From NCBI RefSeq assembly GCF_003334785.1, contig NZ_QOWV01000031.1: a stretch of 23,432 bases of DNA; one strand, given 5' to 3'. Each line of letters starts with the position of its first letter. Position 1 is the first letter of the stretch. This DNA is from Escherichia coli (lineage in GTDB: Bacteria > Pseudomonadota > Gammaproteobacteria > Enterobacterales > Enterobacteriaceae). Positions 21,001 through 23,432 of this stretch are shown here, one piece after another. A program made the position numbers.

Positions 21001-23432
21001 AAATAAAATAACGATAGGTCACAACAAAGAGGTTTTTATGAAAAAACTTATCGTTTCAAGTGTATTGGCATTCATAACATTTTCTGCGCAGGCCGCAGCA
21101 TTTCAGGTCACTAGTAATGAAATAAAAACAGGAGAGCAACTTACAACGTCTCATGTATTTTCTGGATTTGGGTGTGAGGGGGGTAATACATCGCCCTCAT
21201 TAACCTGGTCTGGTGCTCCAGAAGGCACCAAAAGCTTTGCCGTAACTGTGTATGATCCAGATGCGCCTACAGGCAGCGGATGGTGGCACTGGACTGTTGC
21301 TAATATTCCAGCAACGGTAACATATTTGCCCGCTGATGCAGGAAGACGTGATGGTACAAAACTTCCGACTGGTGCTGTCCAAGGCCGAAATGATTTTGGC
21401 TATGCGGGATTTGGTGGAGCATGTCCTCCCAAAGGAGATAAACCCCATCATTACCAGTTTAAAATATGGGCTCTAAAAACTGATAAGATTCCTGTGGATT
21501 CTAATTCCAGCGGAGCGTTAGTTGGTTATATGCTTAATGCCAATAAAATTGCAACCGCTGAGATAATACCCGTTTATGAGGTAAAGTAGGATAAGAGTAT
21601 GCTGGCAAAAGATAGGACTAACCTAAAGATTGAAGAAATACGGATGCATAAACATCATGAGATTCACAGGGTTAAGCCTCTTATGCCAGCTTTATGTCGT
21701 ATCCGTCAGGGAAAAAAAGTTATCAATTGGGAGACGCATAGTCTAACTGTTGATAATAATCAGATAATATTATTTCCCTGTGGATATGAATTTTATATTG
21801 CGAATTACCCAGAAGCAGGTCTTTATCTTGCAGAAATGCTTTATTATCCCATTGATCTAATTGAAAAGTTCCAAAATCTTTATGCGATAACCGATCAAAT
21901 TCGTAACACGACAGGTTTCTGCTTACCTCAGAATCCCGAGTTAATATATTGTTGGGAGCAACTAAAAACATCTATTTCCCGAGGCTTCTCAACGCAAATT
22001 CAGGAACACTTAGCAATGGGCGTTCTACTTTCATTAGGAGCACATCATGTTAATTGTTTACTTTTATCAGATAGTAAACAATCATTAATAAGTCGTTGTT
22101 ATAACCTAATGCTATCCGAACCTGGAACAAAATGGACAGCAAACAAGGTAGCGAGATATCTCTACATTTCTGTTTCCACATTGCATCGCCGTCTGGCAAG
22201 CGAGGGAGTAAGTTTTCAAAGTATATTGGACGACGTGAGGTTAAATAATGCGTTGTCTGCTATACAAACGACAGTAAAACCCATCAGCGAGATTGCCAGG
22301 GAAAATGGTTACAAGTGTCCTTCTCGTTTTACTGAAAGGTTCCATAATCGTTTTAAGATAACACCAAGAGAGCTAAGAAAAGCGTCCAGAGAGTAAAAGT
22401 ATTTTATGAAGGAGCAACAGCATCGATTTTTATTTTGGAAAATAAATACGGCATACTCAACCTATTGGAGCCTGAACAATCCGGTGACTTCTGCGCTAAT
22501 CGGGGACGTTTATAAGCACATATAATTGATACTATCTTCCTCCATCACAATTTCAGAAATGCACGTGTGATTTTTTTGCATCCGGCGTTTGGACTATGTG
22601 GAGTTCAAGAGTGGGAAAGTTACAAGAGGTTGAGGGGATAATTAAAGGGATGCTTATGACATTAGATATCCGGATAGGTACGGATATCGTTGTTATTAAA
22701 TCTAGTTCGTTGTTATTAAATCTAGTTTATACGTTAAGATGCAGCTACAGCAGAAATTGCCACTGTTAATTTTTTCATCGTGAGCCCTTTTATTTGAACT
22801 ATTATTTAAAAATGATGTCACTGCACTGCAAATATTCATCCAATCAATGAGATTATTTCAAGATGTAAGTTTTAGTTTCTCATTTAAATTGTGAAGTAGA
22901 TCCCTATCTTTATCTGAACTGTTTCTATTGCACACAATGCATGACTATTTTGTGAACGAATATAAATTTGGTAGTTAAATTATATTAAAGGTTGTTATTT
23001 ATGATTGACTCATAATTTATTTATTTAATTTAAATAGCCTAGAAATAACCATGGAAATTATTTGCATGATGTTTGTTTAGATTTATTAATGTAATTGAGG
23101 TGGTTTTATTTAATACGCAATATAGCGCCGCTTGATATTAGTTCTATTTTTTTTTGCGTAAGATAGATGAGACAAACTGAGACGCATAATGGTTTGCAAG
23201 GCTCTAATACTTTGATGTTGAGGATGTGATGGGGCATGTACGGGGCATAGTACAATGATGTCCATGCTGGTGTAGATAATCTCCAGGCTTATCCGGTGCG
23301 CCGTAAAACCCCGTCCTTCAGGGCAGGGATATAAGGCGTGGTTTTCCACCTAACTAGGTGTTTGCTGTTGTTCAATGTATTGGCGGATGACGGATATTGG
23401 CGCACCTCCGCAGCTACTGGCAAAATAGCCAG

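What the first reader, a model, noticed from the sequence alone, without database searches (positions are those of the whole stretch)
23289..23432. Possible 3' end of a minus-strand gene entering from the right window edge
The minus-strand frame is open for 47 codons from the window end to a TAA at 23289..23291 (...LAILPVAAEVRQYPSSANTLNNSKHLVRWKTTPYIPALKDGVLRRTG*). This region is more GC-rich than the preceding 0.9 kb, so it may be the start of the next gene or island component.
Basis: seen in the sequence. Interest (0 to 1): 0.3.

Follow-up and report, generated by a model that had tools for sequence, protein, structure and literature searches.

The report
Left end of an IS609 element

Summary
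The sequence facts are right: there is a 47-codon stop-free minus-strand frame ending at TAA 23289-23291, and GC rises from 0.34 to 0.52. The frame is not a gene. Extending the window through near-identical E. coli genomes shows that 23293-23432 is the first 140 nt of a ~1.75-kb IS609-type IS200/IS605 element (tnpA and tnpB divergent) inserted 3' of a TTAT target (23289-23292) that overlaps the stop codon of yedK. The real minus-strand gene entering from the right edge is tnpA. It is read in a different frame (...GYFASSCGGAPISVIRQYIEQQQTPS*) and ends at TAG 23350-23352. The 26 complete codons in the window include the catalytic Tyr (23377-23379, equivalent to IS608 Y127). Positions 23293-23349 are the non-coding left end with its subterminal hairpin (23309-23328). 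In all three same-site relatives examined tnpA is a pseudogene, and the window shares hairpin-weakening substitutions with one of them. This is an already known kind of element, of low interest. In passing, I found a 46-nt single-hairpin derivative of this IS that is widespread elsewhere but absent from the window.

The parts
23289..23292 (+). TTAT: the target and left cleavage site (CL) of the insertion sequence, and the predicted TAM for its TnpB. It lies outside the element. In IS-free genomes its last T is the first base (on the + strand) of the yedK stop codon.
   Evidence: TTAT immediately precedes the element at 6 independent chromosomal sites and 1 plasmid site. The empty site L002 reads ...GGCTTAT|CAAACAGG with no duplication. 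The TAM role is inferred from the rule that target equals TAM (PMC10055086).
23293..23432 (+). The first 140 nt (top strand) of an IS609-type IS200/IS605 insertion sequence. The full length is 1748 bp in intact copies and 1714 bp in the closest relative at this site.
   Evidence: Similarity to copies at other loci begins at 23293 after the shared TTAT, and the flanks are unrelated.
23293..23349 (+). Non-coding left end (LE), 57 nt.
   Evidence: It lies between the element boundary and the tnpA stop codon. No Rfam family matched here at E <= 1.
23305..23308 (+). AAAA: the presumed left guide tetranucleotide (GL), immediately 5' of the hairpin foot.
   Evidence: Assigned by position, by analogy with IS608, where GL = AAAG recognises CL = TTAC (PMC3201880). 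Here TTAT goes with AAAA. This is an inference and was not tested.
23309..23328 (+). Subterminal imperfect palindrome IPL: CCCCGTCC (23309-23316), loop TTCA (23317-23320), GGGCAGGG (23321-23328). It starts 16 nt from the cleavage site. The window has A at 23325 where intact copies have G, and T at 23339 where they have C; both weaken the predicted stems.
   Evidence: Single-stranded DNA fold: -14.2 kcal/mol (z -2.42) for the intact LE and -8.5 kcal/mol (z -0.58) for the window's LE. Substitutions are listed. This is the only occurrence of the hairpin core in the window.
23350..23432 (-). The 3' end of tnpA (Y1 HUH transposase): stop TAG at 23350-23352, complete codons for residues 118-143 (GYFASSCGGAPISVIRQYIEQQQTPS), and 2 nt of codon 117. 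The catalytic Tyr135 codon TAC is at 23377-23379. T at 23355 gives Ser143 where every other copy examined has Gly.
   Evidence: PGAP annotates tnpA at the same coordinates in the collinear genome. The 26-aa fragment alone aligns to positions 106-126 of 126 in NF033573 (E 0.0024). Y135 aligns with IS608 TnpA Y127.
23289..23432 (-). It is a spurious out-of-phase frame running across the tnpA 3' end, the LE and the target site.

Best explanation
Window 23293-23432 is the left terminus of an IS609-type member of the IS200/IS605 family. The element is inserted, with no target duplication, 3' of a TTAT (23289-23292) that overlaps the yedK stop codon. It has the IS605-like divergent layout: LE, then tnpA on the minus strand, then tnpB on the plus strand, then RE. 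The window therefore holds the 57-nt non-coding LE with its imperfect hairpin, followed by the last 26 codons of tnpA, which include the catalytic tyrosine. Elements of this family move by TnpA-catalysed single-strand 'peel and paste'. TnpA binds the LE and RE hairpins on the top strand (the + strand here), cleaves after TTAT on the left and after TCAA on the right, and reinserts the single-stranded circle 3' of another TTAT. TnpB with its RE-derived guide RNA is expected to re-cut the TTAT-bearing empty site. Shown here: the boundaries, the target motif, the hairpin, and the protein identity and frame. Inferred: the guide pairing, the TAM role, and the state of this copy. This copy is most likely an immobile fossil (about 85% likely), because in all three same-site relatives examined tnpA is a pseudogene and the window shares LE hairpin-weakening substitutions with one of them.
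For: The window's right edge matches annotated 'IS200/IS605 family transposase' genes in 4667 of 5426 complete E. coli genomes. The collinear genome NZ_CP024141 (99.44% identity over 23.4 kb) annotates tnpA at 23350-23781 (-), followed by divergent tnpB and then yedK. Six independent chromosomal sites and one plasmid site all read TTAT|CCGGTGCGCC...GGAGGATGTCAA| with unrelated flanks. The empty site is TTAT|CAAACAGG. Intact TnpA matches PF01797 at 1.5e-41, NF033573 at 145.7 bits against a cutoff of 55, and IS608 TnpA 2a6m at 2.3e-19, with H69/H71 aligned to H64/H66 and Y135 to Y127. The neighbouring gene matches guided_TnpB NF040570 at 391.8 bits. The LE hairpin folds at z -2.4 in intact copies. 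In published work, the IS608 rules (PMC3201880) and a survey listing TTAT and TCAA as frequent cleavage sites of TnpB-carrying IS605-group elements, present in 90.9% of E. coli genomes (PMC9956272), match this anatomy. On decay, tnpA is a pseudogene in L001, L007 and L008, each with different lesions. The window shares A23325 with L001 and L007, and T23339 with L001.
Against: Only 140 nt of the element lie inside the window, so the rest of tnpA, tnpB and RE, and the pseudogene status of this particular copy, are inferred from relatives that are 99.8% identical over the junction. No 100% match was found. Codon-position statistics among copies do not separate the two frames: synonymous/non-synonymous counts are 12/13 and 11/14. 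The frame assignment therefore rests on homology. The name IS609 rests on PGAP's label for a 95-96% identical copy, not on the ISfinder reference.
Confidence: 0.97

Rival explanations
1. One reading: the frame ending at TAA 23289-23291 is the 3' end of a real protein-coding gene.
For: The frame is open to the window edge. It stays open for 77 codons in every copy examined.
Against: The frame has no ATG, and the earliest possible start is a TTG at codon 18. It has no Pfam, NCBIfam or meaningful PDB match. It overlaps, out of phase, a frame with a 1.5e-41 Pfam match. Its last 20 codons run through a non-coding transposon end, and its stop lies in flanking target DNA that differs at every insertion site beyond the TTAT. 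An open stretch of this length occurs in 12% of stop-delimited intervals. Variable sites among copies are most frequent at codon position 2 in this frame (3, 8 and 7 at positions 1, 2 and 3).
Confidence: 0.01
2. The copy at the window edge is an intact, transposition-competent IS609 rather than a decayed fossil.
For: The 26 tnpA codons in the window carry no stop or frameshift and keep the catalytic Tyr. Intact copies exist elsewhere in E. coli.
Against: All three genomes examined with the element at this same site have a tnpA pseudogene, each with different lesions. The window shares both A23325 and T23339 with L001, whose tnpA has an internal stop and whose tnpB is frameshifted. These two substitutions lower the LE fold from -14.2 to -8.5 kcal/mol.
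Confidence: 0.1
3. The window edge enters a gene-less or tnpA-less derivative (a PATE-like remnant) rather than a tnpA-bearing element.
For: Such derivatives exist: a 46-nt single-hairpin unit, and a 1337-bp tnpA-less form that shares only IS positions 1-59 before diverging.
Against: The window continues to match tnpA through IS position 140 (23432). That is well past the point where both derivatives diverge, which is position 32-36 for the miniature and position 59 for the tnpA-less form.
Confidence: 0.03

Closest known systems
IS609 (E. coli; IS200/IS605 family; tnpA plus insQ/tnpB)
   Same: The ends and the TTAT/TCAA junctions are the same, and tnpA and tnpB are divergent in both. PGAP labels the TnpA of a copy that differs at 6 of 144 nt as 'IS200/IS605-like element IS609 family transposase'. 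The window's 26 TnpA residues differ from that protein at 2 positions.
   Different: The copy at this site is degenerate in relatives: it is 1714 bp instead of 1748 bp, with an internal stop in tnpA and a frameshift in tnpB. The window has a private Gly143Ser change and two substitutions that weaken the LE stems.
IS608 / IS605 of Helicobacter pylori (the mechanistic and structural reference)
   Same: Both have a Y1 HUH TnpA, with the HUH histidines and Tyr127 aligned (E 2.3e-19). Both have subterminal imperfect hairpins, insert 3' of a tetranucleotide with no duplication, and have an RE ending in TCAA 10 nt 3' of the hairpin. In both, a 4-nt guide sits 5' of the hairpin foot (PMC3201880).
   Different: The target is TTAT rather than TTAC, and the presumed guide is AAAA rather than AAAG. 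The cleavage site is 16 nt from the hairpin foot rather than 19 nt. tnpA is inverted relative to tnpB, as in IS605 and unlike IS608. HMMER finds homology along the whole protein, but percent identity was not computed.
IS200 (Salmonella / E. coli; tnpA-only elements)
   Same: The transposase belongs to the same family (NF033573), and both have an LE hairpin.
   Different: IS200 has no tnpB, and its tnpA reads away from LE. Here the 3' end of tnpA abuts LE.
PATE-like non-autonomous IS200/IS605 derivatives
   Same: The 46-nt and 1337-bp derivatives seen at other loci keep the same termini and the same TTAT target. PATEs are described in PMC3119063 and PMC10055086.
   Different: What lies in the window is not such a derivative, because it carries tnpA sequence. 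The 46-nt form has a single hairpin rather than separate LE and RE hairpins.

Membership tests
IS200/IS605 family insertion sequence | Encodes a Y1 HUH transposase (PF01797 / NF033573) with an HUH motif and a catalytic Tyr. | tested here: met
   Intact copies match PF01797 at 1.5e-41 and NF033573 at 145.7 bits against a cutoff of 55. HUH and Tyr align with IS608 H64/H66/Y127. The window's own 26 residues align to the C-terminal 21 positions of NF033573 (E 0.0024) and include the Tyr codon at 23377-23379.
IS200/IS605 family insertion sequence | Subterminal imperfect palindromes at both ends instead of terminal inverted repeats. | tested here: met
   The LE hairpin is CCCCGTCC-TTCA-GGGCGGGG (window version GGGCAGGG) at 23309-23328. 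The RE hairpin in relatives is CCTCGTCC-TTCA-GGGCGTGG. The termini CCGGTGCG... and ...GATGTCAA are not inverted repeats of each other (by inspection).
IS200/IS605 family insertion sequence | Inserts 3' of a specific tetra- or pentanucleotide with no target-site duplication, leaving a scarless empty site. | tested here: met
   TTAT precedes the element at 6 chromosomal sites and 1 plasmid site. The empty sites read TTAT|CAAACAGG (yedK) and TTAT|ATATCC (P1-like plasmids).
IS200/IS605 family insertion sequence | A right-end cleavage motif inside the element, a fixed short distance 3' of the RE hairpin. | tested here: met
   Every copy ends ...GGGCGTGG-AGGATGTCAA|, so TCAA ends 10 nt from the hairpin foot. 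IS608 has the same motif and distance. This part lies outside the window.
IS200/IS605 family insertion sequence | A guide tetranucleotide 5' of the LE hairpin foot that matches the cleavage or target site. | tested here: inconclusive
   AAAA (23305-23308) precedes the foot and the target is TTAT. IS608 has AAAG and TTAC, so the last position co-varies (G/C against A/T). The pairing itself cannot be shown in silico. One miniature copy follows TTAC while keeping the same AAAA.
IS200/IS605 family insertion sequence | Strand-specific single-strand transposition activity. | not testable with these tools
   This needs excision or integration assays. Relatives at this site have tnpA pseudogenes.
IS609 (ISfinder name) | Near-identity to the IS609 reference sequence. 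From memory, ISfinder's isoform criterion is roughly >95% amino-acid or >90% nucleotide identity. | tested here: inconclusive
   No ISfinder reference was available. An indirect test was possible: PGAP names the TnpA of L003 'IS609 family transposase', and the window differs from that copy at 6 of 144 nt and 2 of 26 residues.
TnpB/omega-RNA-carrying IS605-group element | A tnpB gene with a guide-RNA scaffold at its 3' end and RE. | tested here: met
   This is met in relatives only and lies outside the window. The match to NF040570 is 391.8 bits. Sub-threshold HgcC (21.9 bits) and RAGATH-18 (28.1 bits) matches fall at the tnpB 3' end and RE, L001 5991-6120.
   There is no ATG. There are no Pfam, NCBIfam or PDB homologues. 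Variable sites peak at codon position 2 in this frame.

The most novel reading that the evidence does not exclude
This case lies outside the window but grows from the same left end. The 46-nt units made of the first 16 nt of LE, one hairpin and the last 10 nt of RE are full-length in 876 of 5426 E. coli genomes, and also occur on Klebsiella, Pantoea, Salmonella and Allochromatium plasmids. They might be mobilised in trans by TnpA as single-hairpin, REP-like minimal substrates, rather than being scars left in place when a full element collapses by deletion between its nearly identical LE and RE hairpins. Nothing novel remains plausible for the window segment itself.
Probability: 0.12. Interest if true: 0.4.

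Novelty: already known. Interest (0 to 1): 0.05.

Why it matters
The main value is correct annotation. It stops a spurious 47-77-codon ORF from being called. It places the real tnpA stop at 23350-23352. It fixes the right boundary of the variable fliE-emrE-ybcLM-spacer segment at the TTAT at 23289-23292, where an IS609-type element sits on the yedK stop codon. The element family, its single-strand transposition mechanism and its TnpB partner are well described, so the finding opens no new question.

Tried and rejected
1. Codon-position and synonymous/non-synonymous counts among four tnpA copies were meant to pick the true frame. With only 18 variable sites and several pseudogene copies, the counts were 12/13 and 11/14, which does not discriminate. 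The frame assignment rests on homology instead.
2. I considered whether the LE hairpin also acts as the intrinsic terminator of tnpA, since on the tnpA strand it is followed by UUUU. The consensus scan did not flag it on the minus strand, because only 4 U follow. The RNA fold has z -2.4 in an intact copy and -1.0 in the window. I kept this as an unsupported idea only.
3. An Rfam scan at a permissive threshold over L001 3500-6300, which corresponds to window 22399 onward and beyond the edge, found nothing at LE or the tnpA 3' end. It gave only sub-threshold HgcC and RAGATH-18 matches at the far end of tnpB.
4. I looked for a 100% identical source genome. The best match was 99.8%, so the window's T at 23355 is private.
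5. An ungapped comparison of the window with L006 failed because of 4 indels. It was redone with blastn.
6. The frame labels printed for loci L001 and L003-L005 are permuted by a script offset. The window rows are labelled correctly, and the sequences themselves make the frames unambiguous.
7. I tested whether the 46-nt miniature transposes independently. A precise presence/absence polymorphism exists at a P1-like plasmid site. However, a 1337-bp tnpA-less derivative occupies the same site in other plasmids, so in-situ collapse is at least as likely.

Full report
OBSERVATION. GC is 0.521 for this stretch against 0.336 for 22400-23288 (profile). So the sequence facts are correct. The open frame is not statistically notable. 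In the window's six frames, 229 of 1874 stop-delimited intervals (12.2%) are at least 47 codons long, and (61/64)^47 = 0.105.

WHAT LIES BEYOND THE EDGE. The last 533 nt of the window match 4667 of 5426 complete E. coli genomes. The best matches are 99.8% identical, and the feature annotated under them is 'tnpA: IS200/IS605 family transposase'. Genome NZ_CP024141 is collinear with the window, at 99.44% identity over 23.4 kb. Its gene order is yedJ-dcm-vsr ... rcsA, fliR to fliF, fliE, emrE, ybcL, ybcM. Next comes a tnpA pseudogene at coordinates equal to window 23350-23781 (-), then a divergent tnpB/insQ pseudogene, then yedK-yedF-yedE.

THE FRAME. In the extended sequence, the frame that carries transposase motifs (HVHLVFVTRYRR ... 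HVHLLINYPP ... LWSPGYFASSCGGAPISVIRQYIEQQQTP) ends at TAG 23350-23352. The two stops are 61 nt apart, so the frames are out of phase. Note that the frame labels printed for the loci are permuted, while the window rows are labelled correctly. Intact TnpA from another copy matches Pfam Y1_Tnp PF01797 at 1.5e-41 and NCBIfam NF033573 at 145.7 bits against a cutoff of 55. It also matches solved IS200/IS605 transposases, including IS608 TnpA (2a6m, E 2.3e-19). In that alignment H69/H71 align with the IS608 HUH histidines H64/H66, and Y135 aligns with the nucleophile Y127 (the role of Y127 is from PMC3201880). The window holds complete codons for residues 118-143, including the Tyr135 codon at 23377-23379. 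These 26 residues alone align to the C-terminal 21 positions of NF033573 (E 0.0024).

It has no ATG. It has no match in Pfam or NCBIfam, and nothing below E = 0.1 among PDB sequences.

BOUNDARIES OF THE ELEMENT. Genomes without the element match the window up to 23293 and then continue directly into yedK. Copies at other loci begin to match at 23283-23289. I aligned six independent chromosomal insertion sites:
- yedK (window, L001, L007, L008)
- a TetR-family gene next to ytfB (L003, L011)
- gltX/yfeD (L004)
- yeaR/yeaQ (L005)
- a DUF3251 gene near tsx (L009)
- yfaY/yfaV (L010)

Together with one P1-like plasmid site (L019), these always give TTAT|CCGGTGCGCC ... GGAGGATGTCAA| with unrelated flanks. 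The empty site reads ...GGCTTAT|CAAACAGG.... The element therefore starts at window 23293. TTAT at 23289-23292 is the target site and is not duplicated. Intact elements are 1748 bp long.

THE LEFT END. Positions 23293-23349 are non-coding. Sixteen nucleotides in from the boundary lies an imperfect hairpin: CCCCGTCC (23309-23316), TTCA, GGGCAGGG (23321-28). Intact copies have GGGCGGGG in the 3' arm. As single-stranded DNA, their LE folds at -14.2 kcal/mol (z -2.42), with an outer GCGCC/GGCGC stem. The window's copy has A at 23325 and T at 23339, and it folds at only -8.5 kcal/mol (z -0.58). The RE in relatives carries a near-identical hairpin (CCTCGTCC-TTCA-GGGCGTGG) followed by AGGATGTCAA.

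This matches the IS608 scheme. In IS608, the left cleavage site is TTAC, 19 nt 5' of the left hairpin. The right cleavage site is TCAA, 10 nt 3' of the right hairpin. Four-nucleotide guides sit 5' of each hairpin foot, and the left guide is AAAG (PMC3201880). In the present element the four bases 5' of the foot are AAAA and the target is TTAT, so the last position co-varies with IS608. This is suggestive, but the pairing is an inference.

[quoted passage not shown] It finds such elements in 2242 of 2467 E. coli genomes (PMC9956272). PGAP names the TnpA of one copy 'IS609 family transposase', and IS609 is routinely reported in E. coli genome papers.

MECHANISM. The boundaries, target motif, hairpins, protein family, catalytic residues and divergent tnpB are shown here. 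The tnpB match to NF040570 is 391.8 bits. The mechanism follows from established knowledge of IS608 and ISGst (PMC3201880; PMC10055086). TnpA binds the hairpins on the top strand, which is the + strand here. It cleaves after TTAT and after TCAA, excises a single-stranded circle and leaves a scarless TTAT donor joint. It then reinserts the circle 3' of another TTAT. [quoted passage not shown] Sub-threshold Rfam HgcC and RAGATH-18 matches at L001 5991-6120 fit such an RNA. All of that part lies outside the window.

STATE OF THIS COPY. Three lineages carry the element at the yedK site, and in all three tnpA is a pseudogene with different lesions. L001 has TTA changed to TGA at codon 97. L007 has a frameshift plus an internal stop. 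L008 has a 5-nt deletion. The elements are 1714, 1647 and 1743 bp long. tnpB is frameshifted in L001 and annotated as a normal CDS in L007 and L008. The window shares both LE substitutions with L001. It also has a private T at 23355 that changes the last residue from Gly to Ser. The insertion at this site is therefore probably old and immobile. The window itself cannot show the lesions, because they lie to its right.

COMPARISON AND NOVELTY. This is a member of a known family, and probably an isoform of the named element IS609. Every family-defining feature that can be read from sequence is met (see the membership table). The only differences from the IS608 reference are expected family-level variation: TTAT/AAAA instead of TTAC/AAAG, a 16-nt rather than 19-nt spacing, and an inverted tnpA. 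Verdict: already known, with low interest.

SIDE OBSERVATIONS.
(a) The TTAT target overlaps the yedK stop codon. In the empty site YedK ends ...IQPV*. With the element inserted it ends ...IQPVC*, using the TGA complementary to the first three bases (TCA) of the element's terminal TCAA.
(b) A 46-nt unit occurs at full length in 876 of 5426 E. coli genomes and in 29 PLSDB plasmids, including Klebsiella, Pantoea, Salmonella, E. marmotae and Allochromatium. It consists of the first 16 nt of LE, one hairpin and the last 10 nt of RE. Eight loci show the exact unit with unrelated flanks, after TTAT in 7 of 8. At a P1-like plasmid site there are empty sites, 46-nt sites and sites holding a 1337-bp tnpA-less derivative. 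In-situ collapse between the nearly identical LE and RE hairpins is therefore at least as likely as independent mobility. No such unit is in the window.
(c) There is a perfect 20-nt tandem duplication at 22687-22726.
(d) The AT-rich spacer 22738-23293 is shared at 98.2% identity with genomes that carry a porin gene instead of emrE-ybcLM on its left.

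Noticed in passing
L012 1239-1284 (-) and 1500-1545 (+); L013-L018 1501-1546; not in the window: A 46-nt single-hairpin derivative of the IS occurs at many loci: CCGGTGCGCCGTAAAA-CCCCGTCC-TTCA-GGGCGTGG-AGGATGTCAA, made of the first 16 nt of LE, one hairpin and the last 10 nt of RE. 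It is full-length in 876 of 5426 E. coli genomes and in 29 plasmids, including Klebsiella, Pantoea, Salmonella and Allochromatium. It has unrelated flanks, follows TTAT in 7 of 8 aligned loci, and always ends in TCAA. At a P1-like plasmid site there are empty sites, 46-nt sites and sites with a 1337-bp tnpA-less derivative. It may therefore be a deletion scar between the LE and RE hairpins rather than a mobile miniature.
   Followed up: partly
window 23289-23292; L001 6104-6109; L002 1790-1795: The TTAT target overlaps the yedK stop codon. In IS-free genomes YedK ends ...IQPV* (TGA made of the last T of TTAT plus CA). With the IS inserted it ends ...IQPVC*, and the TGA is complementary to the first three bases (TCA) of the element's terminal TCAA.
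   Followed up: yes
L001 5991-6120 (tnpB 3' end and RE; outside the window): There are sub-threshold Rfam matches to RAGATH-18 (28.1 bits, E 0.018) and HgcC (21.9 bits, E 0.035). This is where the TnpB guide (omega/re) RNA scaffold is expected.
   Followed up: no
window 22687-22726: There is a perfect tandem duplication of the 20-nt unit TCGTTGTTATTAAATCTAGT in the AT-rich spacer downstream of ybcM. Just upstream, at 22665-22688, is a terminator-like hairpin on the + strand.
   Followed up: no
window 20357-23293: emrE, ybcL and ybcM sit between fliE and yedK. From memory, these are DLP12-prophage genes in K-12. They are followed by a 0.9-kb spacer with 34% GC. The spacer's right part (22738-23293) is shared at 98.2% identity with genomes that have a porin gene annotated ompC on its left, so this is a variable island with a common right-hand segment.
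   Followed up: partly
L001, L007 and L008 (same yedK site); L019: tnpA has decayed independently in three lineages at the same site, while tnpB is still annotated as a normal CDS in two of them. A tnpA-less, tnpB-only 1337-bp derivative exists on P1-like plasmids. This fits the general pattern of TnpB outliving TnpA.
   Followed up: partly
window 23347-23360 (+): A small 5-bp hairpin, CACCTAACTAGGTG followed by TTTGCTGTTG, spans the tnpA stop codon and is conserved in other copies. The consensus scan flagged it as terminator-like on the + strand, which is the read-in direction and antisense to tnpA. It is weak and may be a chance match.
   Followed up: no
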